A DNA stretch of 64,000 bases, from IMG/VR virus record IMGVR_UViG_3300025087_000034. One strand, written 5' to 3'. This stretch comes from a virus. Taxonomy: Duplodnaviria > Caudoviricetes. Under the pieces are notes generated by a model. That model was not told where the DNA came from and searched no databases. It saw only the letters and a list, made by a program, of their open reading frames with translations. Below, piece by piece: positions 260 through 63,866 of this stretch; within the stretch, counting starts at the first letter, position 1, and each line of letters starts with the position of its first letter. The position numbers and the translations under genes were made by a program.

Positions 260-804
260 GCTTGTTTTCCTTTGTTGGTTCGATAAAATTTGCCTTTATA
301 GTGTTATTATCTCTTCAATTAGGGTATTCTTACCATAGGGAGGGGGCGCACAAAATATTCACCTATTTTTACCCCTTTTAGAAGTTTTTTTCGCACGCTA
401 AAAAACTTACCCCCAAAACATAAATAACCTATCTTAATTTATTAATGTTTCCTCATTTAAATCTTTTTCATTTTAATAGTGGTATTTTTTGTGAAATTTA
501 CGATTAGTATAAGTTTAAGAACAGGAAAGGTCTATGGAGAATAACATGAATTTCTACAAGATTCTCAACTCAGACGAATGTCACAACGGCTTACAATTCA
601 AAACAGGTCTAAACGTAGACCCTGCTCCTTTCCAGAAGGAAGGTTCTTGTGTACGAGGAGGAATTTACTTTGCTAGAGAAGACATTCTAGCTTTTCTGGA
701 CTATGGGCCCTGGCTCAGAAAAGTTACCATTCCTACCGACGCAGAAATGGTGCTAGACCCGGAAAAAGAACCTGAGAAGTGGAGAGCTTCCAAGGTTATT
801 CTTG
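1..804. repeat. Inverted duplication (1-259 vs 546-804) with a perfect 127-bp core
   Basis: 1-127 is the exact reverse complement of 678-804; 128-259 matches 546-677 with scattered substitutions. Confidence 0.95.
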
Positions 805-1526
805 GGAAAAGAGAAAAGATTACCGTCGAGGTAGTGGAAAGATTGATTCAGGAGGGGGCTAACGTACACGCTAACAAAAACTATGCTCTTCAATGGGCTA
901 GTAGGAAGGGGCACACTAAAGTAGTAAAACTTCTTCTTGAGCACGGAGCTGACGTACACGCTCAGGAAGACGAGGCTCTTAAACTGGCTAGTGAGTACGG
1001 ACACACTGAAATAGCAAAACTTCTTCTTGGGCACGGAGCTGACGTACACGCTTGTGAAGATGGGGCTCTTTGGTGGGCGAGTATAAAGGGGCACCTTGCA
1101 ATAGTAAAGCTTCTTCTTGAGCACGGAGTTGACGTACACGCTCACGAAGACGAGGCTCTCAAGTGGGCTAGTATGAGGAGACACCTTGAGGTGGTAAAAC
1201 TTCTTTTTGAGCACGAAGCTGACGTACACGCTCAAAGAGACTATGCTCTTAGGTGGGCTAGTATGAACGGGCATCTTGAAATAGTAGAACTTCTTCTTGA
1301 GCACGGAGCTGACGTACACGCTTGTGAAGATGAGGCTCTTAAGTCGGCTAGTGTGAGGGGGTACGTTGAAATAGTAAAACTTCTTCTTGAGCACGGAGCT
1401 GACGTGCACGTTTACGAAGACTATGCTCTTAGGTGGGCTAGTAAAAATGGGCATCTTGAGGTGGCAAAACTTCTACTAGAACACGGAGCTGACGTACATG
1501 TGGACAAAGACGTGGATATCCTGTAG
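534..1526 (+). CDS. Ankyrin-repeat protein with a conserved N-terminal domain
   Basis: Seven complete plus one partial 30-aa repeat of the type GADVHAxEDxALxWASxxGHLEIVKLLLEH; triple stop TAG TAG TAA. Confidence 0.93.
   Translation: MENNMNFYKILNSDECHNGLQFKTGLNVDPAPFQKEGSCVRGGIYFAREDILAFLDYGPWLRKVTIPTDAEMVLDPEKEPEKWRASKVILGKREKITVEVVERLIQEGANVHANKNYALQWASRKGHTKVVKLLLEHGADVHAQEDEALKLASEYGHTEIAKLLLGHGADVHACEDGALWWASIKGHLAIVKLLLEHGVDVHAHEDEALKWASMRRHLEVVKLLFEHEADVHAQRDYALRWASMNGHLEIVELLLEHGADVHACEDEALKSASVRGYVEIVKLLLEHGADVHVYEDYALRWASKNGHLEVAKLLLEHGADVHVDKDVDIL
851..1505 (+). repeat. 90-bp tandem coding repeats (ankyrin units)
   Basis: GCACGGAG(C/T)TGACGTACACG recurs at 941, 1031 and 1121, and the period of 90 continues. 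Confidence 0.9.
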
Positions 1527-1683
1527 TAGTAAAGATGCTGAAAGAAAGGGTTAACAAAACCTAAACCTAACCTTTAAGTAGGGGAAGAGGAGAATAGTGC
1601 CTTTTAGACATTCTTACTTTCGTTGAAATGTTTCACCTTTGTAGCACTAAACTCTTACTCTTTCATCTACTTATTTTTCATCT

Positions 1684-1711
1684 AAAAGGGCCCTTAGGGG
1701 CCCTTTTTTTA
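1684..1711 (+). terminator. Intrinsic terminator, possibly bidirectional
   Basis: AAAAGGGCCC-TTAG-GGGCCCTTTT followed by further T residues, downstream of the ankyrin gene. Confidence 0.8.
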
Positions 1712-1956
1712 TGGTTTGGTGTCGGCCCGACAAACCTTCCGTTTTCTTATCATTATAACTGTTCATCGGAGAAGTTTGTGAAATAGGCACTAAAGTAAAA
1801 TATTTGCAGATTTTTCACGTCTTAAATTTTTTTTCGCGCACTGAAAAAGACTCCAAATTAATAATACTTTCTTATATATTAATACAATTACCTATCTCTC
1901 TATTTCATAATAAACTATATTAAGATTCTTCCATAATCTTCCTTCTTGCCTCAATA

Positions 1957-2106
1957 ATATTGTATTCTTTTTATATTTCCCCCCTTTTAAGAATATTGTA
2001 TTCTTTTCAAAGCTTTCTTCCTCGTTTTCTCCCCTCTCCCTAACAATATTGTATTCTTTTCAGACATGATATTGTATTCTTTTCAAACATGGTATTGTAT
2101 TCTTTT
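1957..2106. repeat. Five dispersed 15-bp direct repeats (iteron-like)
   Basis: ATATTGTATTCTTTT at 1957, 1993, 2046 and 2069, and (G for the first A) at 2092. The last three are spaced 23 bp apart. Confidence 0.9.
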
Positions 2107-2202
2107 ATGTCCGTGGTGTACACCCTTTTGTTAAGAAATCCAGCAAAATTAATTTATTTTTTATTGAATAGGAGAATAAACTAATAAATTCAAACACATA
2201 AT

Positions 2203-2256
2203 TGTATGTACAATACTGTATGTACAATACTGTATGTACAATACTGTATGTACAAT
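2203..2256. repeat. 14-bp tandem repeat, ~3.9 copies
   Basis: TGTATGTACAATAC units at 2203, 2217, 2231 and 2245; each contains the palindrome TGTACA. Confidence 0.95.
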
Positions 2257-2257
2257 G

Positions 2258-2286
2258 TTGACATTGTACGTGCTTTCTTTTATATA
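2258..2286 (+). promoter_or_regulatory. sigma70-type promoter for the RHH gene
   Basis: TTGACA-N17-TATATA directly abutting the tandem repeat; AAGGAG RBS downstream. Confidence 0.6.
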
Positions 2287-2328
2287 TATAGTGTACCGTC
2301 TAGGGTATTTTAATAAGGAGAATAGATC

Positions 2329-2490
2329 ATGCAGAAAAAAGAAGGTAAAAGAATGAATTTTAGATTGTCGAATGAGACTATTACTATATTGAAAGGGTGT
2401 GCTGAAAAGAAGGGGGTAAGTATGACAGAGGTATTGGAAGAATTTGTATTAGTATATGGTACAAAGTGTTTAATAGAAGAAGATAAATAG
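2329..2490 (+). CDS. Ribbon-helix-helix (CopG/Arc-like) DNA-binding protein, 53 aa
   Basis: Manual translation MQKKEGKRMNFRLSNETITILKGCAEKKGVSMTEVLEEFVLVYGTKCLIEEDK shows an alternating beta strand (MNFRL), helix A, a G-x-S turn and helix B. It is below the ORF-track cutoff. Confidence 0.8.
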   Translation: MQKKEGKRMNFRLSNETITILKGCAEKKGVSMTEVLEEFVLVYGTKCLIEEDK

Positions 2491-2625
2491 TTATTTTTGT
2501 TAGTGTTTTGTAAGAAGAAAGTATATTATTATATTGTTTTGTTTGTTGTTTGTTAAAGAAAGAGTATACCTTAGCAAATAATTTTTGGGTTTTGTTTTTA
2601 TTTAGCGCCGAGAAAAAATTGGGTG

Positions 2626-2985: not shown

Positions 2986-3118
2986 GTTGTTTTTCCTTTT
3001 CTTTTTCAGTTCGCCAAGAAATTTTAGGGTTATAAAAAAGATGGGTTCTTTAGTTGTTTTAGGGTGTAGAAGGTGGGTTCTAAGGTGTATTTTGTATCCT
3101 TTGGATTTTTTAACAAGT

Positions 3119-3370: not shown

Positions 3371-3428
3371 GAGGTTACCTTTTTTTAGTGCCGCGAAAAA
3401 ATCTGGGGTTTCATAGAGGGTTCGTTCT

Positions 3429-3878: not shown

Positions 3879-4382
3879 CTAGAAAGTACACACGAAATAT
3901 TTGTCTGGTAGTACTTCTAGTAGGGGTTTTACATCTTTCCATTCAAGTTCCCCTGCACCACAACCTGGTCGAGGAAGAAAGATCTTACAATCAATATTGT
4001 TAAACATTTCCTATAGTTGGGTTATACTTTGTTGTATGATAGCCGGACTAGCCTGTACGGCCCATCCAGGTATTTTGTTCCCAGGAGCAAACTTTCCTTT
4101 CATATGTTTTACTATTGTTTTAGAGTCATATGAGAAGACAGGTTTTACTGGGAAAGATACTAGAATGTATGAATCAAAAAGACCTAGAATGTTTACTACA
4201 TTCCCGTTCTTTTGAATCATATTTTCTAATAGTTTGGGTAGGTTAGGGAATTTTTTCGCCGCCGAAAAAGCAATCCCTCTACCCATAACACATTCTCCTT
4301 TTCCCTTTAAAAAATCATTAGTAGTAATACAAAGGATATTTCCTTTAGCTAATTCCCATAAATCTCCTCTAAGTTCCTTCAT
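3879..4382 (-). pseudogene. Macro-domain (ADP-ribose processing) gene interrupted by one in-frame TAG: pseudogene or read-through
   Basis: GGAGGTG RBS then MKELRGDLW..ITTN..VMGRGIA..FP. TAG at 4013-4011 (codon 124) is followed in frame by EMFNNIDCKIFLPRPGCGAGELEWKDVKPLL..., the typical C-terminal PxxGCGxGxLxW Macro motif, ending at TAG 3881-3879. Confidence 0.75.
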
Positions 4383-5271: not shown

Positions 5272-5275
5272 TTGA

Positions 5276-12801: not shown

Positions 12802-13326
12802 CATTCTTTAATGAATACCCTACGATTTCGAGGCTGCCTAAAATTTAGCGCGGGCTAAAAAGAATTTAACACCTGAGCTTAAAATACTATCATATTATTC
12901 CATATACCAGAATAAGGATATTTCTTCAGACTATAAATACATGTTTGGGGATGAAAAAAGACATACCCACCAGTACAGGTCAGAATTGACTTTTATTTTG
13001 TTGGTCTATATTTATTGATTGGGTAGGATTGTTTAAACGTATTTTTGTTAGCCCGCCGAATAAAAACCTGGGTATTTAACAAAATTGTCGTCCCGTATAT
13101 ACGTCAACATAAACGTGTGTTGGTGTATAATGTCCTTACCTATCTTCCCCACTTATAACAATCCATAATGAATTGTACTTATTTTTGTGGCTCTATCTTT
13201 GGGTTTGGGGGTTATGTACAATCGTACCTTGTAAGAGAAAACCCAGGGATTCTAGGGATTTACAGTCCAGTGTGTCCGACTAGGTATGAGAGGGGCAGGG
13301 GTGGGGGCGTCCAGCCCCCTCCCTGT

Positions 13327-14652: not shown

Positions 14653-14722
14653 TTTCCATTCTCCTTTCCTGGTTAGAATTTCATCATAGCGCCAAATTTT
14701 TCTTGGGCGCTATAAAAAAACA

Positions 14723-17769: not shown

Positions 17770-17867
17770 TATAAAACAAAGACCAATCTGGACAAGTCTG
17801 TTGTAAATAAAAACAATCTATCCCCGCTTTAAAATTTTAGGGCGGGCTAAAAAAGAATGGATGATAA

Positions 17868-19055: not shown

Positions 19056-19200
19056 TAATAGTGATTGAGTATTTTTTAGTAATATATTAAATCGTTTTAT
19101 GTATAAACGGGTGGATTTGTTTTTTTGAAAATCACCACACCTTTTGCGAAAACCAGAAATTTTTTCAGCGCGCCAAAAAAATTGGCCCCAAGGATATAAA

Positions 19201-19738: not shown

Positions 19739-20449
19739 ATGGTATTAAAGACTTTGGTTCTGGTAGCTTCCTTAGTTTTAATTGCTACCCCCACCAAGGC
19801 CTCTGGTAGTCAGGATGGTACAATGATAGAAGGTATTATGACTATGAGGGGTAATTTTAAACATGTAGACTTAAAGTTAGTAGAAGGATTAGTTAAAGAA
19901 GTAAGTGAAGTAGTTTCTAAGGAAGAGTATATATGGATAGAACCAGAGACTATACTCGGTCTGGCCCTTAATGAATCTGATTTAAGATGGTGGTTGGTAT
20001 CAGGAGATAAATATTTTAAGGATTGTGGAATATGTCAAAATCATGTGCCTTCTTTTAGAAATTCTTTTGGTGCGCGAAAAAAACTTTGTATAGATTTGAC
20101 ACGATCTACAAAGTTAAGTTTTGAGTACGCTGCTAGAGAGTTGACAGATATATATAGTAAGTGGTGTAAGGATAGATATAAAGCTCCAATTATTAGAGAG
20201 GGGGAGTTTATACATAATTTTTTAGGCCGGCTAGAAAAATACCACTTAAATAAATTAAGATGTACTTTAAATATCTATAATCAAGGACCTAAATACTTTA
20301 GTAGAATAAAAGACCCAAAATGGTATTATAGAAATAATTATTGGATAAGGTCTTATTGTTTTACTATGGGGATACGCTTAGGTAAAAAACCAAAAGTAGA
20401 TTGTAGAAGGGCAACAAGTATTAGATGGGTAAATTCAATGTATAAATAA
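19739..20449 (+). CDS. Secreted lytic transglycosylase (SLT)-like protein
   Basis: Signal-peptide-like N-terminus; LALNES (catalytic Glu), GICQ and YNQG match SLT motifs I-III. Confidence 0.65.
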   Translation: MVLKTLVLVASLVLIATPTKASGSQDGTMIEGIMTMRGNFKHVDLKLVEGLVKEVSEVVSKEEYIWIEPETILGLALNESDLRWWLVSGDKYFKDCGICQNHVPSFRNSFGARKKLCIDLTRSTKLSFEYAARELTDIYSKWCKDRYKAPIIREGEFIHNFLGRLEKYHLNKLRCTLNIYNQGPKYFSRIKDPKWYYRNNYWIRSYCFTMGIRLGKKPKVDCRRATSIRWVNSMYK

Positions 20450-20881: not shown

Positions 20882-20940
20882 TTGGAACGTCTAGTAGGCT
20901 AGAAATTTTTTCGCGGGCTAAAAGAGAAAGGACCCAAAAA

Positions 20941-23690: not shown

Positions 23691-24230
23691 ATGTGTGAAA
23701 AAGACTGTAGTCATAATTGTGATAATAAATATAAGCATATGGGTGTGACTCCTGTTGAGTTGAACTATCGCCAGGAGGGTAGGTGCAAACTAGAATTGTT
23801 TATAGATATTGTTGGTGATGAGAACTTGGTTGACGACTTATATTGTACTGATGGGGAAGAATATGCTAGACTTTGTGATATGTTAAATCCCACATTTGAG
23901 TGTGTAAAATGTGTACGAAATAAGTTTATAAATACTATAGGAGAATTAATGGATAATTTCAAATACTTAAATAAGTGGACTGTTTTAGTTCTTCAAACTT
24001 TTTCTTCCGCCGAAAAAAATTCTGACCATGTTTATGTAGAAATGTCAAAGCCGACATTGCTAGACGTAAAAGATTTTATGAGTAAGACCTTTATATATAC
24101 TTCTGAGACCAGCCCTCTTAGAGAGGTTGAAGGAAAGACTTATTTGTTTGGTAAAGAAGTTATATTTAATAATAAGATAAAAGCCGGAATAATGGTTATA
24201 ATGCCTGGGAATTTTGAGGTAGAGGTCTAA
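23691..24230 (+). CDS. Hypothetical protein
   Basis: 179-aa ORF. Confidence 0.65.
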   Translation: MCEKDCSHNCDNKYKHMGVTPVELNYRQEGRCKLELFIDIVGDENLVDDLYCTDGEEYARLCDMLNPTFECVKCVRNKFINTIGELMDNFKYLNKWTVLVLQTFSSAEKNSDHVYVEMSKPTLLDVKDFMSKTFIYTSETSPLREVEGKTYLFGKEVIFNNKIKAGIMVIMPGNFEVEV

Positions 24231-25277: not shown

Positions 25278-25753
25278 TGGTTTGTACAAATTGTGGTAAA
25301 AAGGATAGACATGATATAGAAAGGACACCAGCCGATAATATACCAGGGACAGACTCGGCTTTGGGTCTCAAAAGTGATGTGGAGGCTGATTTTATTCGGC
25401 GGCTAAAAAAAGTGGATGAAAAATTTCCAGACCCCATGAAACTATCATATAAAGAATATATAAAAGAAAGAGAACAATATGTGAGAGAAAAAAAGTCAAT
25501 AGCAGAGGAGATGGTTAGTGAACGAAGTGAAGATTTCAAACGTATCCAAATTCATGACCTTGTAATGATCTTTAATTATGAGGAGTTTTCACCTTATATA
25601 ACACCTCACCAAGCTATTGTTGCGTTATGGGAGTTTTCTCATAGTAAGTCATTTAATAAGATATTTGACGAGTTTGAAGGTTTAAGAGAACAGGTTGATT
25701 TAAGATATAAAGAACTAAAAGATAAAAATATTACATTGTTATGGAAAATATAG
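25277..25753 (+). CDS. Hypothetical protein
   Basis: 158-aa ORF beginning CTNC. Confidence 0.65.
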   Translation: MVCTNCGKKDRHDIERTPADNIPGTDSALGLKSDVEADFIRRLKKVDEKFPDPMKLSYKEYIKEREQYVREKKSIAEEMVSERSEDFKRIQIHDLVMIFNYEEFSPYITPHQAIVALWEFSHSKSFNKIFDEFEGLREQVDLRYKELKDKNITLLWKI

Positions 25754-26539: not shown

Positions 26540-26674
26540 CCCAAAAGGTAGGGGTATAATTAATATGAGGTTATTTTTATTTTAAATAGTTAGGGGGGGG
26601 GTCATTAAAATTTTTTTCGCCGGCCAAAAAAATAGTTCACCTACAAGGTAATTAAACCAAGAGGATTCAAAAAG

Positions 26675-27478: not shown

Positions 27479-27522
27479 GAAATTTTTAGCGCGCTAAAAA
27501 GAAGAAACTGTAACCATATCTT

Positions 27523-30244: not shown

Positions 30245-30499
30245 ATGGAAGATACTTTAAATTTTTTCTGTGTTGTTTATGTAGATGATAATGGTGAATT
30301 ATGTATGTGTAATATTGAATTTAAAAAGACTTGTAAACGTAGGTTGATAGGTGATTTAGATTGTAGGGAAAGTTCGGTACGTGTGACACCTATTCAGATA
30401 ACAGATGATAGTCAGATAATTTTTTCTAGCGCGCTAGAAAAAATTAATGATAGTAGAAAATCAATTATTAACCATATTAAAAAGGTGGGCAGAAAATGA
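30245..30499 (+). CDS. Hypothetical Cys-containing protein
   Basis: 84-aa ORF, AAGGAG RBS. Confidence 0.6.
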   Translation: MEDTLNFFCVVYVDDNGELCMCNIEFKKTCKRRLIGDLDCRESSVRVTPIQITDDSQIIFSSALEKINDSRKSIINHIKKVGRK

Positions 30500-32150: not shown

Positions 32151-32155
32151 AAATT

Positions 32156-35912: not shown

Positions 35913-35962
35913 ACTTTTTTGGCGCGCGAAAAAAATTTAAACAATAAGGGTTTAGATATAAG

Positions 35963-37876
35963 ATGCCCGATAATCTAGATTCAAATTTCTTAAATAAATT
36001 AAACTCAAAATACACCAATGTAAAAGTCCATGACGTTGTAGAGAATGGTGATGGGTCTATCTCTATGGTATTAAGTGGTAATAAGGATAATCTATCTTTA
36101 ACTCTTAATAATGTAGGAAGACCTATAGATACTTTGGAAGATGTTGACATAAGTAAATTAAGAAGAGATAGAAAAAGAGGAAGGGAAGCAGCTTCTTCTT
36201 TAGTCACTAGAGATGTCTTAGGTGTAGATTATCTGGACCTATACACTACCCCTGGTATTTTAAGTGCTAGTCCGGCCGCTGTCTATGATCGTTCTACACT
36301 ATATTATAGAACAAAAGATGTTTACGGTTCCTCCATAGATTTACTTACCAATTTTGCTTCACGTGGATTTAAAAACTATATTGATGATATCGATATTCGT
36401 AATTTTTATAATAATTGGGTCATAGATACGGGCGTAGATGCTTTGGTTGAGCAGCTATTCTTTGAGATTTTTAGGTCCGGGTTAGTTAGAACCTATAAGA
36501 ATGTTGGTGCATATAAACCTAAGGTGAATCATGTCTCCACAATACCAGGGGCTGAGGTTCCGAAGGTTAGCGATGATGTTGCTTCCCTGACAAAGGCTAG
36601 GGTGGAAGCAAATGTTGCCAGATGTAAAAAAGACAGTGCAGCTAAGAAGATAAAGTGGTCTAAGGGATACTTACCCATAGATTATACTATATTAAATCCA
36701 TCCCATATAAGTATTGACCAACAGTCTTTGTTTGTTAAGCAAGAGTTAATAAGTATAAAGGGTAAGGCCTTCGAGGGATTAAAGAAGATGTTGGAAATCC
36801 CTCAGTCCTCATTGACTGAACACCAAAAGTTTATAATAAAAAATCTTCCTGCAGAGATAAAGCAGGCTGCCCAAGACGGCAAGGATTTGGAATTAGACCC
36901 TTACAGGGTTGGGGCTATTGACTATAGAAAACAGCCATATGAGGTTTATCCATTTCCCCGTGGTGCTCGTGCGTTTGAGAGCATGGAGTATAAGCAGGCT
37001 CTTAAGGAAGCGGACAGCAGCACACTAGATGGTATAACCAATTATATATTAGTTGTTACTGTAGGTGATAAAGATATCCCTGCTAATCAAACAGTACTAG
37101 AGTCTGTAGCTGATATGTTCAATACTACGTCAAAATCTTTCGACGTATTTTGGAATCACACTTTAAAGGTAGAAAGGCTGCAGCCCTCCGCTATTGGTGA
37201 CATACTTGGTCAGGATAAGTACAAACAGGTAAATGATGATATCACGGGGGCCTTTGGAATTATTCGGGCACTTATAGATGGAGGTGGGTCTCCTACACAA
37301 GCGGCTGCCGATTTAGCTGTTAAGTCTCTTATAGTAGAAATAGAGTATGTTAGGAAACTCGTGACACGATGGCTCTATGCTGAATATAGGGATGTTGCGG
37401 AGGCAATGGGGTTTGAGCGCTACCCTCAGGTTCAGTTTGATAATAACATACTTAAGAATGAGCTATTGTTCATGAACTTAGTACAGGGTATGATTGATAG
37501 AAGAATTATTTCCTATCGTACGGGCCATGACCTTCTTGGTCAGAACCATGAGACTATTTTGTCCGAGTTGGAGGCCGAGAAGCCTTTGGTTCTTGATGGT
37601 ACCTTGGGTGTTATTGGTTCTCCGTATAATGCTAGGGCGGTACCTTTGGCTGATAAGGTTCAGAAAACTCCAGAAGGAATACCTTCAGAGGGGCGCCCCC
37701 GCAATAAGCCAGCTAAGACTCCTGCGCCTGCCACTAACCCTAAAAAAGTTAAGGTGGATAAGGATACGGAGACAAGTGCTGGTATAGAGGTTCCTAATTT
37801 TATAAAAAATTTGAGCGCGGAAGAAAAAGATTTGTTCATAGAATTCATGTTAAAAAAACTAACTAGTAATAAATAG
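35963..37876 (+). CDS. Portal protein
   Basis: Size and position directly after terL, before protease/scaffold/capsid. Confidence 0.72.
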   Translation: MPDNLDSNFLNKLNSKYTNVKVHDVVENGDGSISMVLSGNKDNLSLTLNNVGRPIDTLEDVDISKLRRDRKRGREAASSLVTRDVLGVDYLDLYTTPGILSASPAAVYDRSTLYYRTKDVYGSSIDLLTNFASRGFKNYIDDIDIRNFYNNWVIDTGVDALVEQLFFEIFRSGLVRTYKNVGAYKPKVNHVSTIPGAEVPKVSDDVASLTKARVEANVARCKKDSAAKKIKWSKGYLPIDYTILNPSHISIDQQSLFVKQELISIKGKAFEGLKKMLEIPQSSLTEHQKFIIKNLPAEIKQAAQDGKDLELDPYRVGAIDYRKQPYEVYPFPRGARAFESMEYKQALKEADSSTLDGITNYILVVTVGDKDIPANQTVLESVADMFNTTSKSFDVFWNHTLKVERLQPSAIGDILGQDKYKQVNDDITGAFGIIRALIDGGGSPTQAAADLAVKSLIVEIEYVRKLVTRWLYAEYRDVAEAMGFERYPQVQFDNNILKNELLFMNLVQGMIDRRIISYRTGHDLLGQNHETILSELEAEKPLVLDGTLGVIGSPYNARAVPLADKVQKTPEGIPSEGRPRNKPAKTPAPATNPKKVKVDKDTETSAGIEVPNFIKNLSAEEKDLFIEFMLKKLTSNK

Positions 37877-42794: not shown

Positions 42795-44459
42795 GTGTTT
42801 ATGAGCAATAATAAGGTACAAGAAAATAAAAAGTGTTTAAATGTGGATAGGAAGATAGCCTGGTGTAGAAATAAGCTGGACGAGATTGGTGTCTATATGG
42901 GGGCATTTAGTTATACCCTGGTTTCAGATAGTTATAAAAATAATAAAATTAAATTAGAGACCTTGTGTCCTAATGGCCATAGGTGGTTTGTTAGGTGGAG
43001 TGATTTTAGGGTTGGTAAGCGGTGTCCTTGTGAAACCAACAATATGCCAATAACTAAAGAGGTAGTGATAGAAGTTTTAAAGGTTTATGGTTTCGACCTT
43101 GTTTCCGATACCTATGTAGATAATAAAACACCCATAAAGATAAGGTGTACTCATGGGCATACCACGGAAATGAGTTATAGCCATTTCTATAATAGACCTC
43201 ATTGTAGTGAGTGTTGGAGAAAAACACTACCAACATATAGCAAGATAAAAGAACACTTTGTTGTTATGGGTTATACCTTATTGTCGGATAATTATGTGGG
43301 ATCTAAGAAACTTTTAAGATATAAGTGTAAAGAAGGACATATAAATTATATGTCTTGGAATAACTTTAGTAGAAAGTATAGATGCCCAGACTGTGCTAAT
43401 AATGCTTTATTAACTATACCTTTTTTGAGGGAAGAGTTTGGTAAAAGGGGATATACGTTAAATTCAGATATATATGAGGGCAACAAGAAAAAGTTGGACT
43501 GTACTTGTCCTTTGGGACATAAATGGTCTGTAAGTTGGAATTGTTTTAATCGTCCACAAGAATGTCCGAGGTGTAATAGAATGTCTTCAAAACCAGAACG
43601 TGAGATTAGGGATTTTGTTATTTCTTTATTAAGTGAAGAAGAAGTAATATGTAATGATAGGGAAACTATAGGTCCTTATGAATTGGATATTTTTATTCCC
43701 GCGAAAAAAGTTGCTATAGAATTTTGTGGTCTTTATTACCATTCCGAGGTCTCCGGAGGCAAGACGAACCGATATCACTATGATAAAATGGTAGCTTGCA
43801 ACCAGAAGGGCATAAGGCTTCTAGTAGTGTTCGAAGATGAATACACCAATAGAAAGGAAGTAGTTCTTTCAAGAATACAGAACGCAATAGGTGTTGGACT
43901 AAAACGAGTATACGCACGACAGTGTGAAATACGAGAAATAGATTCAAAAACAGCAAATGCATTTTTGTTAGAATTTCACTTACAAGGTAAAAGTAATTCA
44001 ACTAAAAGGTGGGGTTTATATTATAAGGATTTATTGGTAGCTGTACTTACGGCAGGGTTCCCCGCTCGCGCTCATACGTCGGGCGGGAAACGGGTTCTTG
44101 AAATAAAGCGGTTCGCTTCTAGGGGTGGGTATAGTATTGTAGGCGGAGCGTCAAAGTTGTTTGGCAAAGCTAAGGAGTTTGCTATAGAGCAGGACTTTGA
44201 GGTGATTAAGAGCTATTGCGACAGACGCTATGAGTCACTTCGGCCCGTCTACGAGCAGCTGGGATTGGTAATGCAATCATACACTAAATATACGCCTCAC
44301 TATATTAGTCCTGATTATAAAGTACGGGTCCGCAATCAAGGATTGAGAAAAACTCCGGAAGAAAGACTCACTGGAAAAAGTGAGTGGGAGCTTAGGAGAG
44401 AACAGGGCTACGATCGCATATTTGATTGTGGACATAGAACATATGTTATGGAGCTCTAG
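42795..44459 (+). mobile_element. Hef-like putative homing endonuclease with four Zn-finger repeats
   Basis: Y.L.SD.Y....C..GH...W..F...C..C x4; ELDIFIP..AIEFCGLYYH; YARQC, HLQG, IVGGASKL, SYCDRR. Confidence 0.75.
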
Positions 44460-44467: not shown

Positions 44468-45916
44468 GTGGGAAAGCTATCTAAAGAGTATAATTTGGCT
44501 GTTCTCTATCCGGACTTAGCTAAACAATGGCACCTTACTAAGAATAAGGGGGGCCCTGAACAATATTTACCAAAGTCTTGTAAAAAAGCCTGGTGGTTTG
44601 AAGAAAAAGATGGTGTTTTTTATGAATGGAAAGCAAAGATACAAAATAGGGTTAGTAACGGTGCAGGTAATCCATATATTTGTGGTCAATCTGTGGGGTA
44701 TGGAAATGATTTAGCTTCGCTACGTCCAGATTTAGCTAAACAATGGCACCCAACTAAAAACGAAAAGGGCCCAGAGCAGTACACCATAGGTACCCATAAG
44801 AAAGTGTGGTGGCTTGAGGAGATTGAGGGGGTTGTGTACGAGTGGTTGTCTCCCATATACCACAGGGTTAGGGGAGATAACAACCCATATTTGTCTGGTA
44901 GGGCGGTTGGGTATGGGAATGATTTAGCTTCGCTACGTCCAGATTTAGCTAAACAATGGCACCCAACTAAAAACGAAAAGGGCCCGGAGTGTTATGTTCC
45001 AATGTCCAGCAAAAAAGTTTGGTGGTGCGAGGAGGCTGGTGGAGTTTTTTACGAGTGGGAAGCCATTATACATAATAGAGTAAGGCTTGAGCAAGGTAAT
45101 CCTTATTTATCGGGGCATAAGGCTGGTTATGGTAACGATTTGGCTACTTTGATGCCTGATTTAGCTAGACAGTGGCACCCTACTAAAAATAAGAAAGGGC
45201 CAGAGCATTATACCTGTGGCTCACCGAAGAAGGTTTGGTGGGTACAAGAGGTCGGTGGGGTTGTATATGAGTGGCAGATGTCTATTTATAGCAGAGTTAA
45301 GCTTGGTTGTAATAACCCCTATTTGTCTGGTCAATCTGTGGGGTATGGAAATGATTTGGCATCGCTATGTCCCGATTTAGTTAAACAATGGCACCCAACC
45401 AGGAATAAAAAAGGTCCCGAATGTTATACTATAGGGTCTGGTAAAAGGGCCTGGTGGTGTGAGGAGGTTGGTGGGGTTTTTTATGAGTGGCCGGCAACAA
45501 TCTACAGTAGGGTTCACGGGAGTGGTAACCCATATATTTGTGGGGGGCCTATCTCTAAGATTTCACAGCAGTGGCTGGATTTTTTAGGGGTACCCAATAA
45601 TGTAGGTACTACAAGGGAATTTTTAATAAATGTAGGTACTAAGTCTTTTAGGGTTGATGGTTTTAACCCGGAAACCAAAACTGTTTATGAGTTTCTAGGT
45701 ACTATTTGGCACGGCGATCCTAGGGTATGTCAGTCTTTAGACAGAAATCCTTTTAATAAAAGGACCTATGGCCAGCTTTACTATGAAACTCTTGAACGTT
45801 TCGACCTGATAAGGTCCGTGGGATATAGTATAAAATATGTTTGGGAAAGTGATTTTAGGGCGGGAAAAAAGTTCTCAGTAGGTAGTTTTCAAAAGGAGGG
45901 AAAGTATGAGTATTAG
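44468..45916 (+). mobile_element. Putative homing endonuclease: five Zn-less DUF4379-like repeats plus a PD-(D/E)xK-type nuclease
   Basis: GYGNDLA.L.PDLAKQWHPTKN.KGPE x5; VDGFN..VYEFLGTIWHGDP..YVWE. Confidence 0.75.
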
Positions 45917-47089: not shown

Positions 47090-47197
47090 TTTTTTGGCGG
47101 GGTAAAAAAGAATCCAATAATAATAAATAAGAGGACTTTTTAATCGTGCCCTGAATATATAGTGCTAAAAAATATATGATAGGTGGAACAATAAAAA

Positions 47198-51018: not shown

Positions 51019-51072
51019 ATTTTTTTAACGCGCGGAAAAAATAATCCCAACATGAAGAAAGTATAACACATA

Positions 51073-52974
51073 ATGACCACACTTCCAAGATACGAACATT
51101 GTTGCCTAGACCATAGATATTTTATGTCGTCATTTCATGATTACAGCGGAAATGGAAATCATGGTTCTCCGTCCGGTGTACGTTGGGAGAAAAAACCCAG
51201 TACCCATGTCCGTTATGTGTTAGCAAGTGAAAACAGGATAACGGTCTCAAATAGTCCTTTGTTAGAGTCCATGACAGAGGGAACCATTATAGCCTATAGC
51301 GACGAATTTAAACAGACGACTGAAGCCTACGATATAATTACAAGTAAAGGATTAGCGTCGAATCACCCTCTATTCTCATTTTCAAATGATGCTGTAGGTC
51401 AAATATATCTAACGGATAGTGTTAATACCAGAGGGGCGATAAATCCGTATGCTGGAAAAAAATCCGTCGCAGTATCCTTCAGGAATGAGGAAACTCCTTA
51501 TTCTTATACAGATGGTACAAATAAGGTAGTCTTTGATGGTGAAATTATCTGTGATGGTACAAGCAGCGCTGATTTGGTTATCGGTAATCTGGAGGGGTAC
51601 TCCTTTGCTTGCTCAAACCCTTTAAAAGGTGTACTTTATTATGCTGTTCAGCTAACAGATGATGAAATTGCCCAGGCCCATTCTTGGATTATGGAACAAA
51701 AATCTGTTTCGCGCGCTAAAAAGAATTTTATATACCCCTCCCAACTAAATAAAAGTCCAAATATCTTAGCGGCTTATGAAATGAATAACATTCATGGAAA
51801 AGTAATCGACATAACCGGTCAAGGATATGAAGGAACCATAACAAAATGCAGTGGAGGAACCATCATAGGAGGAATATCGGCGCTAAGATTTAATGGGTCT
51901 GACTCTAAAGTCTTAGTGGACAAAAACGTTGATTTAACTTCAACGGATTTTTCTTTTGAAGCCTTAGTAAAAACTGCAACTGTATCTACAAACATGGTTA
52001 TAGTGTCAAGGCGCACAACTGGGACCTGTTATGTTTACATGCGAATCGATAGTTCCGCGGGTTATTTACGAGCGGTGTTTGTTGGGACAGGCGGATCCGT
52101 AAGTAATGTCTATGGACCGTCAACAAGTGTGGCAAATAATAAGTGGCACCATGTGGTTTTAACGGCTGATAGAGACGGCAATGCAATTTTATATTTGGAC
52201 AGCGTTCCTGGAACACCGGTAAGTATAGCTGCTATAGGTAGTTTGTCTTCTTCTGATTTAGAGATTGGAGCCAGAGAGGCTATTGAGTCTTTTAACGGTT
52301 TGATTTCCGAAGTAGCTGTCTATAATAAATGTCTTTCACAAGCAGAAGTAAGTGTCAGGTATAGGAAATATGCCTCTATCCCTACTTTTCTTGATGATTT
52401 AGAAGACGCTAACGAAAGCGTAACGGTAGAAGGTGGGGCTGTAGGGAATTTTTTAAGTAATACTTGTTGGAGGTTTGGGGATACTATTGGAAGATACAAA
52501 GTGTTAAGGGATGAAACACTAGGAGTAGGTCAGAAAGTTATTGAATGTACAACGGCAGGTTTATTGTATCAAGAAAACAGACAATCTTATGGAACGTGGT
52601 CTTTTGATATATACCATGTGGATTCTTCAAATACTCAACTATTATTTATTGCGGATACAGTAGGAAATAAGTCAGCCTCTGGTCAGGATGGTTATTATTT
52701 TGATATTTCTACTACGGAAGTAGTTTCAGTAGGTGAAAGTGTGGCTGGCACCCCTACAGATAAGGTTACCAATGCTTCTGGTGTAGGGGTTTCAACCTGG
52801 ACTAACTTTAAAATAACCCGGTCATGTATGGGTGTATTTACTCTTTATAGAAATAATGTCTTATTGGGTTCTACTTTTACTGATACTACAGCAACAAATT
52901 CTACATATTTTGTATTGGATTTTGATGCAGGTGATAAGATATCAGACCTACGGCTCTATTCAGGTGTATTTTAA
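51073..52974 (+). CDS. LamG/concanavalin A-like multi-domain virion protein
   Basis: ALRFNGS, KWHHVV, LYLD, FNGLISEVAVYNKCLSQAEV. Confidence 0.8.
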   Translation: MTTLPRYEHCCLDHRYFMSSFHDYSGNGNHGSPSGVRWEKKPSTHVRYVLASENRITVSNSPLLESMTEGTIIAYSDEFKQTTEAYDIITSKGLASNHPLFSFSNDAVGQIYLTDSVNTRGAINPYAGKKSVAVSFRNEETPYSYTDGTNKVVFDGEIICDGTSSADLVIGNLEGYSFACSNPLKGVLYYAVQLTDDEIAQAHSWIMEQKSVSRAKKNFIYPSQLNKSPNILAAYEMNNIHGKVIDITGQGYEGTITKCSGGTIIGGISALRFNGSDSKVLVDKNVDLTSTDFSFEALVKTATVSTNMVIVSRRTTGTCYVYMRIDSSAGYLRAVFVGTGGSVSNVYGPSTSVANNKWHHVVLTADRDGNAILYLDSVPGTPVSIAAIGSLSSSDLEIGAREAIESFNGLISEVAVYNKCLSQAEVSVRYRKYASIPTFLDDLEDANESVTVEGGAVGNFLSNTCWRFGDTIGRYKVLRDETLGVGQKVIECTTAGLLYQENRQSYGTWSFDIYHVDSSNTQLLFIADTVGNKSASGQDGYYFDISTTEVVSVGESVAGTPTDKVTNASGVGVSTWTNFKITRSCMGVFTLYRNNVLLGSTFTDTTATNSTYFVLDFDAGDKISDLRLYSGVF

Positions 52975-53091
52975 ATTCTGTTTAATTATATATTTTGATT
53001 GGATTTTGATGCAGGTGATAAGATATCAGACCTACGGCTCTATTCAGGTGTATTTTAAATTCTGTTTAATTATATATTTTGATTGGATTTT
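52914..53091. repeat. Exact 84-bp tandem duplication
   Basis: 52914-52997 equals 52998-53081, followed by a further 10-bp partial copy. Confidence 0.95.
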
Positions 53092-53253
53092 TTGGCGCGC
53101 CAAGAAAAAATCAGATCCAAGAGATTGGGTATTTTTCAGAGGTTTCTAAATAAAAAGTTTACAATATCCTTAAAATAAATTATATTAATACTAGTGAGTA
53201 TTAAAAACCCTATTTGCATATACTATTGTGCTATAGATACAGGGGTATTTTAT

Positions 53254-61866: not shown

Positions 61867-61869
61867 AAT

Positions 61870-62412
61870 ATGATTCCGCGCGGATTAAAAAAAGAAATTA
61901 AAAATCGTTATCATGATGTTATACAAGGTGCAGGAAGAATAGTATACATATATTCTACACCTGATACAACTGACTGCCCAAATTGTTTAAATGATATTAG
62001 CACAGGTATGTCAATAAAAAGATATGATAGTACTTTTACTGTTCCTACAACTATATATGGTCAGGTTATAAATCCTATTTCATTTATTCGTGGTAGGTGC
62101 CCTGTTTGTAAGGACGCAGGAGTAATAAGTCAAGACGTAAGAAAGGGTATTCGTGCTGTAGTAAGGTGGAACCCCGTTGGTGACGAGGGGAGTATAATTC
62201 AACTACCTGTGGGAAGAGAGGGTTCAAATTTAGTATCTTTAAAAACAAGTAAGGATTATTATGATACTATACGTGAGTGTATTTACGCTAGTATAGATGG
62301 GATAAAGTGTGAGCTGGTTAAACCTCCGGTTTATAGGTATCTTCAATATACAGATGCTCTTGTTATAGCATATTTTATATCGGTTGATGAAGGAAAAAGT
62401 ACGAGGGATTAA
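61870..62412 (+). CDS. Putative head-closure/neck protein with CxxC motifs
   Basis: CPNC and CPVC; position in the neck module. Confidence 0.45.
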   Translation: MIPRGLKKEIKNRYHDVIQGAGRIVYIYSTPDTTDCPNCLNDISTGMSIKRYDSTFTVPTTIYGQVINPISFIRGRCPVCKDAGVISQDVRKGIRAVVRWNPVGDEGSIIQLPVGREGSNLVSLKTSKDYYDTIRECIYASIDGIKCELVKPPVYRYLQYTDALVIAYFISVDEGKSTRD

Positions 62413-62415
62413 GAG

Positions 62416-63102
62416 TTGCCTAATAAAGCTAGTAGTGTACAGGATGCTGTTGATACGTTAAGTGAGCAATTAGTAGACAAGTTCTCAATAGAGTTGTTGA
62501 AGATATTGAAGGCTAGATTCGCTTCTCATTTTCTTATTATTTTTTCAGAGTTGTATAATAGTCGTTTTGGGGAATTGGCTTCTAGAATGGATTCTCAAAT
62601 GGACCCAACCTCACCGTCTATTATAAAGGATGAGGTTTTTTCTTATGTAATGTCACAAGTTAAGTCGGCCATAGATGAGGCAAGTATCTCTAACGGGCAG
62701 TTAAGTATGGGGTTTTTATCTTATGAGGATTTTGGTTATCCTACTGGTCCTGGTAAAAAAGAAACAGACCATCTAAAGTTGTTTTATTTTTATATGGAGG
62801 GAGTGCCGGAATCATATGCTTTTATATCTAGGGATTTCTTTTCAAAATATATAGCACCAGAAAATGAAAAGGACCTTGGTAGATTTGGGGAAGGCTACCT
62901 AATGTCGGAAAAGGTGTATAATAAGATAGCTGACGCTAGAAAGGGCGCTACAACACTCCCACAGTTGCCTGCCTTTGAAAGTGTAAAGAGCCCTGCTTCG
63001 GGGTGGCCCCCGACCAGGATTTTTGAAGACATGGGTGAAGCTGTAGAGATAATGGTTGAACAGTATATAAAAGAGGCCGGACAAATAGCCTTTGGAGATT
63101 AG
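62416..63102 (+). CDS. Hypothetical neck/tail protein
   Basis: 228-aa ORF. Confidence 0.55.
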   Translation: MPNKASSVQDAVDTLSEQLVDKFSIELLKILKARFASHFLIIFSELYNSRFGELASRMDSQMDPTSPSIIKDEVFSYVMSQVKSAIDEASISNGQLSMGFLSYEDFGYPTGPGKKETDHLKLFYFYMEGVPESYAFISRDFFSKYIAPENEKDLGRFGEGYLMSEKVYNKIADARKGATTLPQLPAFESVKSPASGWPPTRIFEDMGEAVEIMVEQYIKEAGQIAFGD

Positions 63103-63104
63103 TC

Positions 63105-63866
63105 ATGGGTGTAACTTCATTAAGATTGGAAAAAGTAGCTCTTTTTAACTTCATAAAGAATGAAGTTTTACCTATAAATTTTTCTGAAAAAGTTTATAAC
63201 GATAGTTTGGTTTATGATAATACTATTGGTGGGTACGTTCCTGCTTCTGTTGTTGAACCCCCTGCTATGTCAACTGGCAGGGGGTGGGTATTTTTTGATG
63301 AAGTTGCCACAAGTTCCCCTGTCGTTATTGATTCAACACAAGAACAGTCATCTCGTATTATTGTTGTTGGTCCTTCTTCCTATACTGTAGATTATTTTCG
63401 CGGCGCTATAAAAAATCCAAATATAGCCCCCACGGATATAACATATACATATAATTATGTATCCGTACTAGATAGTTGGCCAGGTACCGATGTACCACCT
63501 CTTCCCGTAGTGTCTATAGATATAAATAAAACACAAAAAAAAGGATTTCAGCTCGGCGGGGGAAAAAAGAATATTCGAGAAGTATATATAGAAATATTTG
63601 CTTCTTCAAATCCAGAAAGAGATGACATAACAGAAACAATACACGATAGCCTATTCGATAAAAATATAGCTGTAAAAGATTTTTCATATGGTTATTATTT
63701 GAAATCCGATGGTACATATAATACAGGATTTGTTCCCACAACAAATGGGTATATGTATATACTTGACATAAATGTAAGAAATATAAACCTTAAGACAGAC
63801 TGGTCTGTAGTAAACAGACATAGGAGTGTAATAACCTGTCAATACGAAACAATTGTTGAAGCTTAA
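63105..63866 (+). CDS. Putative tail terminator/completion protein
   Basis: LPVVSID..FQLGGG...V.IEIFA...ERDDI pattern and position. Confidence 0.5.
   Translation: MGVTSLRLEKVALFNFIKNEVLPINFSEKVYNDSLVYDNTIGGYVPASVVEPPAMSTGRGWVFFDEVATSSPVVIDSTQEQSSRIIVVGPSSYTVDYFRGAIKNPNIAPTDITYTYNYVSVLDSWPGTDVPPLPVVSIDINKTQKKGFQLGGGKKNIREVYIEIFASSNPERDDITETIHDSLFDKNIAVKDFSYGYYLKSDGTYNTGFVPTTNGYMYILDINVRNINLKTDWSVVNRHRSVITCQYETIVEA

What the first reader, a model, noticed from the sequence alone, without database searches (positions are those of the whole stretch)
385..63568. Dispersed T-tract / CG core / A-tract palindrome, about 30 copies across the window
Seen in sequence: a motif of the form TTTTT-N0-3-(S)CGCG/GCCG/GCGG(S)-N0-3-AAAAA recurs roughly every 2 kb by eye. 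Perfect palindromes include TTTTTAGCGCGCTAAAAA (27483-27500) and the 28-bp AATTTTTTCTAGCGCGCTAGAAAAAATT (30418-30445). Other copies lie at 385, 1827, 2601, 3380, 4251, 12841, 13042, 14697, 17835, 19160, 20906, 26611, 32154, 35915, 47090, 51020 and 53088. Many sit within a few bases of a stop codon (27478, 32150, 35912, 47089, 51018, 14723). Others are embedded in coding frames and impose F-x-R/A-x-K-K peptides (20065, 20218, 25390, 37810, 43690, 45853, 51707, 63395). Persistence inside unrelated genes argues for selection on the DNA/RNA. Inference: possible roles are an operator or nucleoid-organising site for a dimeric phage protein, a phased bending element, a transcript processing/pausing hairpin, or a hairpin with a self-complementary GCGCGC kissing loop.
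Basis: partly seen in the sequence, partly recalled or inferred. Interest (0 to 1): 0.75.

Follow-up and report, generated by a model that had tools for sequence, protein, structure and literature searches.

The report
Gene-boundary DNA motif of jumbo phage
An uncultured groundwater jumbo phage has scattered about 26 copies of a 20-24-base DNA word (a run of T, an 8-9-base G+C core, a run of A) through this window, mostly at gene boundaries; the word is real, far above chance and specific to this lineage, and it is most likely a transcription signal read as double-stranded DNA, though its exact job is unproven.

Summary
A strict pattern (TTTT, 0-4 nt, 4-8 G/C, 0-4 nt, AAAA) matches 23 times, against 2-3 expected from Markov models. 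The mirror order (A-run, core, T-run) matches twice, which is chance level. Of 257 G/C runs, 22 have T on the left and A on the right, and none has the reverse.

The element is T4-8, then an 8-9-bp S-rich, CpG-rich core, then A4-7. It is two-fold symmetric only at consensus level.

It is 15 times denser in intergenic DNA than in coding DNA. Ten of 19 rightward-arm copies end 13-58 nt before a start codon. Three of those are buried in the tail of the preceding gene.

Hairpins are weak and the arms do not covary, so the RNA hairpin and kissing-loop readings are not supported.

The motif is lineage-specific. It is enriched in one relative, including the same terminase/portal junction. It is absent from five other syntenic relatives and from 362 kb of more distant phage DNA.

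Best reading (0.35): a phage-specific promoter or initiation signal at the start of transcription units. Rivals are an operator for a symmetric DNA-binding protein, and a hairpin-independent stop or stop-start signal. No RNA data could be found. Another first-stage note of this scan reported the same motif elsewhere in this genome.

The parts
385..405 (.). Motif copy. It lies near the midpoint of the 288-nt spacer between two divergent ankyrin-repeat genes.
1827..1848 (.). Motif copy in the convergent non-coding region downstream of the ankyrin gene.
2601..2622 (.). Motif copy with an interrupted T-run. It starts 4 nt after the stop of minus-strand gene 2626-2985 and lies upstream of a minus-strand sigma70-like promoter (2556-2528).
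3380..3401 (.). Motif copy near the 5' end of minus-strand ORF 3119-3490. An alternative ATG lies about 11 nt downstream on the minus strand.
4251..4269 (.). Motif copy with extended palindromic flanks, inside or upstream of minus-strand ORF 4011-4382.
12841..12861 (.). Motif copy with a short T-run, 37 nt upstream of the start of minus-strand ORF 12487-12804.
13042..13066 (.). Motif copy with interrupted T and A runs.
14697..14720 (.). Motif copy 3 nt after the stop of minus-strand gene 14723-14932 and 45 nt before the start of minus-strand gene 13570-14652.
17835..17854 (.). Intergenic copy, 13 nt before the ORF start at 17868.
19160..19181 (.). Intergenic copy, 19 nt before the start at 19201 and about 95 nt downstream of a sigma70-like promoter.
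20065..20083 (.). Copy inside coding gene 19739-20449.
20218..20239 (.). Copy inside coding gene 19739-20449.
20906..20923 (.). Intergenic copy. It lies 24 nt after the stop of the 71-aa gene 20666-20881 (P0121) and 17 nt before the start at 20941.
23999..24019 (.). Copy inside a coding gene, in a variable linker of 23691-24230. It is not an insertion relative to orthologs.
25390..25411 (.). Copy inside a coding gene, in a variable, indel-rich linker of 25277-25753.
26611..26632 (.). Intergenic copy, 42 nt before the start of the trypsin-like protease gene 26675.
27483..27500 (.). Perfect 18-bp palindrome, 4 nt after a stop codon and 22 nt before the start at 27523.
30418..30445 (.). Perfect 28-bp palindrome in the last 70 nt of gene 30245-30499, 52 nt before the overlapping next start at 30496.
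32154..32175 (.). Copy 3 nt after the stop of the NusG-like gene (31665-32150), at or over the start of gene 32156-32923.
35915..35935 (.). Copy between terminase and portal, 2 nt after the stop and 27 nt before the start. Relative L001 has a copy at the same junction.
37810..37832 (.). Weak copy in the last 70 nt of gene 35963-37876, 58 nt before the start at 37891.
45853..45870 (.). Copy in the last 70 nt of nuclease gene 44468-45916, 35 nt before the overlapping next start at 45906.
47090..47109 (.). Intergenic copy starting directly after the stop at 47089, 88 nt before the start at 47198.
51020..51041 (.). Intergenic copy, 1 nt after the stop and 31 nt before the start of the tail-fibre-like gene 51073.
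51707..51725 (.). Weak copy inside coding gene 51073-52974.
53088..53110 (.). Intergenic copy, about 80 nt upstream of a sigma70-like promoter. The second copy of a 35-nt direct repeat runs into it.
63395..63415 (.). Copy inside coding gene 63105-63866.
43690..43709 (+). Look-alike that I do not count. It encodes the conserved CapR-domain peptide (LDIFIPAKK), which recurs in paralogs of relative L002.

Best explanation
The motif is a lineage-specific cis-acting DNA signal. It is 20-24 bp long and two-fold symmetric in its consensus: T4-8, an 8-9-bp core made almost only of G and C and rich in CpG, then A4-7. It is read as double-stranded DNA by a protein, not as a folded RNA, and it marks gene boundaries.

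My preferred mechanism is that it is this phage's own promoter or initiation signal, distinct from the sigma70 type, for internal middle or late transcription units. In this reading (inference):
- the easily melted T-run and the rigid GC block position the polymerase;
- RNA synthesis starts in or just after the A-run;
- this gives the short 13-58-nt leaders that are observed.

Shown here: the enrichment, the fixed geometry, the lack of hairpin covariation, the bias towards intergenic DNA and gene starts, and the lineage restriction.

Inferred: that it acts in transcription initiation, and which polymerase or factor reads it. Other notes of this scan report a miniature RNA polymerase and a sigma-like factor elsewhere in this genome. 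I did not check those notes.
For: - It is the dominant word of intergenic DNA in the rightward arm, alongside the ribosome-binding site. TTTTTT, ATTTTT, GCGCGC and GCTAAA top the intergenic-versus-coding k-mer ranking.
- Density is 9 copies in 3.26 kb of intergenic DNA against 8 in 44 kb of coding DNA.
- 10 of 19 rightward-arm copies end 13-58 nt before a start codon, where about 6% would be expected for random positions. Two more lie at 83-88 nt.
- Where genes abut or overlap (30496, 37891, 45906), the copy sits inside the last 70 nt of the upstream gene and 35-58 nt before the next start. A terminator acting at that spot would truncate the upstream message.
- The same pattern recurs in the second motif-bearing lineage. 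Copy L060:11689 lies about 40 nt before the abutting next gene, and L060:11491 lies 18 nt before a start.
- Each tightly packed block of late genes is preceded by a copy: 32154, 35915, 45853, 47090, 51020 and 53088. Sigma70-like promoters occur only at a few other spacers, and no T4-type TATAAATA box precedes the late blocks.
- The geometry is fixed. The modal core is 8-9 bp, and half-sites alone are not enriched (12 one-sided copies per side against 15-17 for the control orientations).
- Hairpins are weak and show no covariation.
Against: - A promoter should be directional. Here the consensus, including its flanks, shows no significant strand asymmetry among 18 co-oriented copies (best position P=0.009 uncorrected, 0.18 after correction).
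- Seven copies start 0-4 nt after a stop codon, even where the spacer is long (47090, 2601, 14697). That fits an end-of-gene signal equally well.
- Spacers carry either a hairpin or the motif, rarely both. This could mean the two are alternative terminators.
- Five to six coding copies lie far from any start.
- Syntenic relatives manage without the element at the same junctions.
- I have no transcript ends and no identified reader protein.
Confidence: 0.35

Rival explanations
1. It is the operator or docking site of a two-fold-symmetric (dimeric) phage DNA-binding protein. Such a protein could be a repressor, a roadblock, an activator or a nucleoid-type organiser. It would read the narrow minor grooves of the T and A runs on either side of a rigid GC spacer.
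For: - Consensus-level two-fold symmetry with no strand asymmetry.
- Both halves are required, and the spacing is fixed at 8-9 bp.
- The core is degenerate, which fits shape readout rather than base readout.
- The site is gained and lost by lineage, as expected if a new binding protein was acquired.
- One small protein, P0121 (window 20666-20881), is shared in the compared 20-kb block only with the motif-bearing relative. A motif copy sits next to its gene in both genomes.
- The confident model of P0121 has a beta3-alpha topology. Its best match is SpoVG (2i9z_A, Z 6.1, rmsd 2.7, 63 residues aligned). SpoVG belongs to a family of site-specific DNA-binding proteins (PMC3688583).
Against: - No cognate protein is identified.
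- The SpoVG match is below the level at which fold matches are reliable, and it has no sequence support.
- The co-occurrence of P0121 with the motif rests on two genomes and a 20-kb window.
- Most copies are not next to a recognisable promoter that such a protein could regulate.
Confidence: 0.25
2. It is a hairpin-independent, orientation-independent pause or termination signal. A T-run in the non-template strand gives a weak rU:dA hybrid and is backed by a hard-to-melt GC block, and the signal is mirrored so that it works from both sides. It may be fused to an A-run initiator, making a compact stop-start mark.
For: - The order T-run, core, A-run is exclusive: 22 copies against none in the reverse order. 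This is what 'stop, then start' predicts on either strand.
- Seven copies begin 0-4 nt after a stop codon, three of them in long spacers.
- Spacers contain either a hairpin or the motif.
- Three copies lie just upstream of sigma70-like promoters, in the classic terminator-then-promoter layout: 2601, 12841 and 53088.
- From my own knowledge, not tested here: archaeal RNA polymerase and RNA polymerase III terminate at oligo-T runs set in GC-rich context.
Against: - Three copies sit 54-68 nt before the stop codon of the gene they lie in.
- A one-directional 47-kb gene array has no obvious need for a mirrored signal or for a fixed core length.
- The phage and its relatives already have ordinary hairpin-plus-T-run terminators.
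- Relatives keep the same genes in uninterrupted operons.
Confidence: 0.15
3. It is an RNA element: a U-run/A-run stem with a GC loop that serves as a processing, stabilising, pausing or kissing-loop hairpin in the polycistronic transcripts.
For: - It lies in leaders and spacers of co-transcribed genes.
- A few copies are extended perfect palindromes with reasonable stability: 30418-30445 at -11.5 kcal/mol, 4251-4269 at -11.5 and 53088-53110 at -8.6.
Against: - Most copies fold at only -2 to -5 kcal/mol, or not through the motif at all.
- Many cores cannot pair with themselves (for example the CGCCGCCG and GGCGGGGT types).
- Core halves are no more complementary than halves permuted between sites (P=0.19).
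- Rfam finds nothing but tRNAs in the window.
Confidence: 0.07
4. It has no regulatory function. It would then be a by-product of mutation or repair (GC filler at breaks between T and A runs), simple-sequence turnover, or a tiny selfish element.
For: - Gain and loss between related lineages is rapid.
- Other notes of this scan describe GC-rich filler tracts and fast-evolving CG tracts in other genomes.
Against: - The coding copy at 23999-24019 aligns residue for residue with orthologs, so it is not an insertion.
- Copies share composition and geometry but no longer sequence, and they have no target duplications.
- The strict T-then-A order, the fixed core length and the strong bias towards gene boundaries point to selection.
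Confidence: 0.05

Closest known systems
Phage-specific promoter words scattered before genes, such as the T4 late TATAAATA box, T4 MotA-box middle promoters and the phiKZ non-virion polymerase TATG motif (own knowledge)
   Same: It is a short, phage-lineage-specific word. It is the commonest motif in spacers. It lies a few tens of bases before start codons, sometimes inside the tail of the preceding gene. It coexists with host-type sigma70 promoters used for other genes.
   Different: It is two-fold symmetric and has a degenerate GC core flanked by homopolymer runs. No directional element was found. No transcript starts are known. TATAAATA itself does not precede the late blocks here.
Palindromic operators read through A-tract shape, or dispersed ParB/Noc-type sites. 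Examples are the Listeria MogR site TTTTWWNWWAAAA and the Bacillus Noc site ATTTCCCGGGAAAT (own knowledge, sequences not verified here)
   Same: It has a T-rich left arm, an A-rich right arm, a central spacer of fixed length and many dispersed copies.
   Different: Here the centre is 8-9 bp of G+C of almost any sequence. No HTH, RHH or ParB-type protein was found in the window. The copies track gene boundaries.
Initiator and terminator grammar of the yeast cytoplasmic linear elements pGKL1/2 and of poxviruses
   Same: The pGKL polymerase starts at an A inside a short A-run and slips there. In pGKL, weak stem-loops with a U-rich end near stop codons, often inside neighbouring genes, form the 3' ends (PMC6831550, PMC6211774). 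Another note of this scan reports a pGKL-Orf6-like single-chain polymerase in this phage genome, which I did not check.
   Different: pGKL promoters have a separate upstream ATNTGA box 17-22 nt before the start site, and nothing like it was seen here. The T/GC/A unit as such is not described for those systems. The link to the phage polymerase is untested.
Intrinsic (Rho-independent) terminators, including bidirectional ones
   Same: It is a GC-rich centre with T and A runs, placed just after stop codons.
   Different: The order is inverted: the T-run lies 5' and the A-run 3' of the GC block. The true bidirectional-terminator order (A-run, stem, T-run) occurs 0-2 times. The GC core is too short to form a stem-loop, and many cores are not self-complementary.
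Mimivirus 'hairpin rule' palindromes at transcript 3' ends (own knowledge)
   Same: They are AT-flanked palindromic signals in the spacers of a large virus genome.
   Different: Those signals need long complementary arms. Here there is no arm covariation and the hairpins are weak.

Membership tests
Intrinsic (Rho-independent) terminator | GC-rich stem-loop (stem of at least 4-5 bp, loop of 3-8 nt) immediately followed by a U-run on the transcribed strand | tested here: not met
   The T-run precedes the GC block. The A-run, core, T-run order is at chance level (2 matches; 0 of 257 GC runs). The folds are weak.
RNA or ssDNA hairpin element (processing site, kissing loop, N4-type hairpin promoter) | Base pairing between the arms is maintained by compensatory changes | tested here: not met
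   Core halves are no more complementary than halves permuted between sites (47 of 104 against 42.5 +/- 4.5, P=0.19). Median stability is only a few kcal/mol. The T/A arms never vary, so they are uninformative.
Sigma70-type promoter | -35 and -10 hexamers 16-18 bp apart | tested here: not met
   The motif contains no such pair. Good sigma70-like promoters lie elsewhere, at 16175, about 19037, about 29200, about 42750 and about 53220, at no fixed distance from motif copies.
Phage-specific promoter | It lies upstream of genes or operons at a short, restricted distance | tested here: met
   10 of 19 rightward-arm copies end 13-58 nt before a start, against about 6% expected. Three of them are embedded in the preceding gene.
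Phage-specific promoter | Directional (strand-asymmetric) sequence that matches gene orientation | tested here: not met
   There is no significant asymmetry among 18 co-oriented copies. Power is limited by the small sample.
Phage-specific promoter | Primary transcript 5' ends at the element | not testable with these tools
   No RNA run holding this phage was listed. The metatranscriptome contigs laid on the window gave nothing.
Operator of a dimeric DNA-binding protein | Two-fold symmetric site with fixed half-site spacing, both halves required | tested here: met
   The consensus is symmetric. The modal core is 8-9 bp. One-sided copies are not enriched.
Operator of a dimeric DNA-binding protein | A cognate binding protein encoded by, or available to, the phage | tested here: inconclusive
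   Pfam finds no recognisable DNA-binding domain in about 60 window proteins. The only lead is P0121, with a SpoVG-like topology at Z 6.1.
Oligo-T terminators of archaeal or Pol III type | A run of at least 4-5 T in the non-template strand in GC-rich context, with 3' ends in the run | tested here: inconclusive
   The T-run and the GC context are present. The 3' ends cannot be mapped. Three copies lie inside genes 54-68 nt before their stop codon.
Mobile mini-element (MITE/REP-like) or filler insertion | Copies are insertions relative to empty orthologous sites, and share extended sequence or target duplications | tested here: not met
   The copy at 23999-24019 aligns without a gap to orthologs. 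Flanks are not conserved between copies. No relative close enough to show empty intergenic sites was available.
Genome-wide tag (uptake-sequence or Chi-like) | Over-representation throughout the genome, including coding DNA, in tolerant positions and preferred frames | tested here: inconclusive
   Coding copies number 8, against 0.9-2.8 expected. All are in one frame and lie in variable linkers. Density is still 15 times higher between genes.

The most novel reading that the evidence does not exclude
The T-run/GC-core/A-run unit is a compact stop-start punctuation mark for the phage's own miniature single-chain RNA polymerase. That polymerase is reported elsewhere in this genome by another note of this scan, and I did not check it. 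In this reading, the T-run backed by the GC block ends the upstream transcript without a hairpin. The A-run then serves as an initiator where the next transcript begins, possibly with slippage. That would be a poxvirus- or killer-plasmid-like transcription grammar operating in a bacteriophage, alongside host-type sigma70 promoters and hairpin terminators.
Probability: 0.12. Interest if true: 0.8.

Novelty: new variant of a known kind. Interest (0 to 1): 0.5.

Why it matters
Huge phages from groundwater are known only from metagenomes, and how they schedule transcription is unknown.

This is a dense, easily recognised DNA word that marks gene boundaries. It is specific to one lineage and coexists with host-type promoters and terminators. 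It therefore gives a concrete, testable handle on that question. It defines candidate transcription units. It also gives a 20-bp probe with which to fish for the reading protein, which could be the polymerase, a sigma-like factor or a small binder such as P0121.

If the word proves to be the signal of the phage's own minimal polymerase, it would supply the first promoter or terminator grammar for that enzyme family.

If it is only an operator or a pause site, it remains an ordinary, though unusually shaped, phage regulatory motif.

Tried and rejected
- RNA evidence: no RNA holder was listed for the window. Contigs of three runs labelled metatranscriptomic from one of the source studies did not lie on window:17000-36990.
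- Cultured relatives: megablast against GenBank phages found nothing. By protein, the nearest are Bacillus phages at about 26% identity. No literature on close relatives exists.
- IMG/VR: the terminase found no relative. An exact scan for the TTTTTTNGCGCGCNAAAAAA form found only single copies in unrelated contigs.
- GTDB genomes: only one distant prophage was found, so there is no host clue. Whole-record scans of L001 and L009 were not possible, and no whole genome is held for the window.
- Upstream GGTAGGT box: not enriched (12 against 9.4 expected).
- T4-type TATAAATA: 14 against 7.8 expected, but none before the late blocks.
- Association with homing-endonuclease cassettes: only two of the copies border window-specific insertions (and the synteny reading), so I rejected it.
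- P0121 as the binding protein: word-based homology search returned only the protein itself. The profile search found a family of about 30 small proteins. The two homolog contigs I could fetch were 0.7-1.4 kb and uninformative. Foldseek against the PDB gave nothing significant. The SpoVG-like match is modest and has no sequence support.
- Alternative genetic codes for the gene-poor left arm: no gain.
- Papers: full-text searches for a T-tract/GC-core/A-tract phage motif found nothing relevant. One preprint on promoter-terminator coupling could not be opened.

Full report
**What the window is.** The window is part of a jumbo phage assembled from groundwater metagenomes.
- Its terminase (34212-35912) is recorded on contigs of up to 258,514 bp, and the DNA is held by groundwater and soil runs of five studies.
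- Genes run leftward in a gene-poor arm (1-16.5 kb, with three tRNAs). They run rightward from 16.7 kb onward.
- The rightward arm encodes a clamp loader, M42 and M24 peptidases, a trypsin-like protease, a dNMP kinase, a NusG-like protein, terminase, portal, the major capsid gene, tail genes and many homing-type nucleases.
- There is no close cultured relative.

- A strict pattern (TTTT, 0-4 nt, 4-8 G/C, 0-4 nt, AAAA) matches 23 times. Markov simulations of order 1, 3 and 5 give 2-3 matches, with a maximum of 8. The mirrored pattern (A-run first) matches twice, as chance predicts.
- Of 257 G/C runs of six or more, 22 have T on the left and A on the right. None has the reverse order, and one-sided copies are no commoner than the controls.
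- Six of the eight GCGCGC hexamers, and 14 of the 33 CGCG in the rightward arm, lie in the motif, although the genome is CpG-poor (observed/expected 0.65-0.75).
- 362 kb of more distant phage DNA of similar base composition holds 0.19 matches per 10 kb, against 3.6 per 10 kb here.
- Corrections: about 26-27 copies rather than 30; uneven spacing; and one listed copy (43690) is a coincidence of a conserved CapR-domain peptide.

**Anatomy.**
- The unit is T4-8, an S-rich core and A4-7. If interrupted runs are counted as part of the arms, the core is 8-9 bp in nearly all copies.
- The consensus is roughly aaaTTTTTTnGCG|CGCnAAAAAAAt. Sequence beyond that is not conserved.
- The symmetry is a property of the consensus, not of the individual copy. 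Many cores cannot pair with themselves. Core halves are no more complementary than halves swapped between sites (P=0.19).
- Predicted RNA hairpins are mostly -2 to -5 kcal/mol on either strand.
- This argues against the hairpin, processing-site and kissing-loop readings. It argues for recognition of the duplex by a protein.
- Eighteen copies that share gene orientation show no significant strand asymmetry.

**Where it sits.**
- In the rightward arm, 9 copies lie in 3.26 kb of spacers and 8 lie in 44 kb of coding DNA.
- The coding copies still exceed the codon-permuted null (0.94 expected) and the synonymous-shuffle null (2.8 expected, P=0.007).
- All coding copies use the frame xxT TTT ... AAA AAx.
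- Two coding copies checked against orthologs lie in variable linkers. One of them aligns without any gap, so these copies arose by substitution and not by insertion.
- The motif's words head the list of k-mers enriched in spacers, together with the ribosome-binding site.
- Ten of 19 rightward-arm copies end 13-58 nt before a start codon, and two more end at 83-88 nt.
- Where genes abut or overlap (30496, 37891, 45906), the copy is buried in the last 70 nt of the upstream gene.
- Seven copies begin 0-4 nt after a stop codon, including copies in long spacers (2601, 14697, 47090).
- Spacers tend to hold either a hairpin or the motif, not both.
- The element therefore marks gene boundaries. Sequence alone does not settle whether it belongs to the gene before it or the gene after it.
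- The phage also has ordinary sigma70-like promoters (for example 16175, about 19037, about 29200, about 42750 and about 53220) and hairpin-plus-T-run terminators (for example after the capsid gene at about 42700). Both are shared with relatives.
- The motif is thus an additional layer of signal.

**Relatives.**
- Seven syntenic relatives with terminase identity of 43-59% were fetched (L001, L002, L007, L008, L009, L032, L033).
- L001/L060, an 87-kb JGI contig, carries 7 matches in 31.6 kb where 0.6 are expected. Its cores are of the CGGCGG/CCGCCG type. One copy lies at the same terminase/portal junction, and two lie 18 and about 40 nt before starts.
- L007, L008 and L033 have no match. L009 and L032 have one chance-level match each. 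L002 has only coding matches, two of which encode the CapR-domain peptide.
- In the relatives whose spacers I read (L002, L007, L008), the same genes form uninterrupted operons with spacers of 2-20 nt.
- The element is therefore lineage-specific and dispensable for the conserved gene order.
- The only window protein in the compared block that is shared solely with L001 is a 71-residue protein (20666-20881, P0121). A motif copy lies next to its gene in both genomes.
- The confident model of P0121 (pLDDT 95.7) has a beta3-alpha fold. Its best match is SpoVG at Z 6.1. SpoVG is a site-specific DNA-binding family (PMC3688583).
- That match is below a safe level and has no sequence support. I keep it only as a lead.

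**Explanation.**
- I rank a phage-specific promoter or initiation signal first (0.35). The reasons are the restricted distance to start codons, the copies embedded in upstream gene tails, the copy ahead of each late gene block, and the lack of any other recurrent signal there (no T4-type box).
- The main weakness is the missing directionality.
- A site for a symmetric DNA-binding protein comes second (0.25). It explains the symmetry, the fixed spacing, the degenerate core and the lineage restriction. It lacks an identified protein and a nearby promoter to act on.
- A hairpin-independent, bidirectional stop or stop-start signal comes third (0.15). It explains the exclusive T-then-A order on both strands and the copies that hug stop codons. 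It fits poorly with the copies inside gene tails.
- RNA hairpin roles (0.07) and a non-functional origin (0.05) are unlikely for the reasons given above.
- Other notes of this scan report a miniature single-chain RNA polymerase and a sigma-like factor far outside this window, and the same motif 34-92 kb beyond the window's end. I could not reach that DNA, so I treat these notes as untested leads.
- They motivate the boldest reading still open. In it, the element is stop-start punctuation for the phage's own polymerase, by analogy with A-run initiators and weak U-ended terminators of the yeast pGKL elements (PMC6831550, PMC6211774).

**Verdict.** The finding is a real, strongly non-random, lineage-specific regulatory DNA word with an architecture I could not match to any described promoter, operator or terminator class. 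Its function is unresolved for lack of transcript data. I rate it of moderate interest and class it as a new variant of a known kind, namely a phage cis-regulatory motif.

Noticed in passing
window 42684-42800 and 30188-30244; L001:20039-20186; L002:19223-19333 and 7193-7293: A hairpin is followed by (G)CACAAG, then a T-run and often a TTTACA-type promoter. This recurs after the major capsid gene and at other spacers, and it is conserved across relatives that lack the T/GC/A motif. It looks like the family's ordinary terminator or processing box.
   Followed up: partly
window 52976-53010 and 53060-53094: A 35-nt direct repeat lies directly after the stop of gene 51073-52974. The second copy runs into motif copy 53088-53110.
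   Followed up: no
window 1-258 and 547-804: There is an inverted duplication (93% complementary) of the 5' parts of two divergent ankyrin-repeat genes. A motif copy lies near the midpoint of the 288-nt spacer between them.
   Followed up: partly
window 20666-20881 (P0121); L001:2278-2499 (P0122): This is a family of about 30 small (63-82 aa) proteins known only from metagenomes. The model is confident and has a beta3-alpha fold, with a modest resemblance to SpoVG. In the compared block it is found only in the two motif-bearing lineages.
   Followed up: partly
window 2626-2985 (minus strand): This 119-aa protein has a weak Pfam hit (E=0.039, below the curated cut-off) to the T4 gp33-type late-transcription coactivator family PF16805.
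   Followed up: no
window 1-16000, plus strand: Terminator-like hairpins are twice as frequent as in shuffled sequence (49 against 20) and lie mostly on the plus strand, although the called genes are on the minus strand. The 8-14 kb stretch is 50% G+C with few ORFs. This suggests non-coding RNA genes or unusual transcription of the left arm.
   Followed up: no
window, whole: GATC is depleted (78 observed against 139 expected from trinucleotides, ratio 0.56). No other 4-bp palindrome is depleted comparably.
   Followed up: no
window 22001-22648, 27523-29165, 32926-34212, 42801-45916; L006:12724-17924: GIY-YIG/NUMOD3, CapR-domain and DUF4379 zinc-finger nuclease genes are inserted relative to relatives L007 and L008. 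They interrupt the conserved replication and virion gene order.
   Followed up: partly
L029 (IMG/VR giant-virus MAG contig, 6 kb): Three T-run/GC/A-run matches lie within 6 kb of a 50%-GC giant-virus contig that the exact-pattern scan picked up. This may be chance.
   Followed up: no
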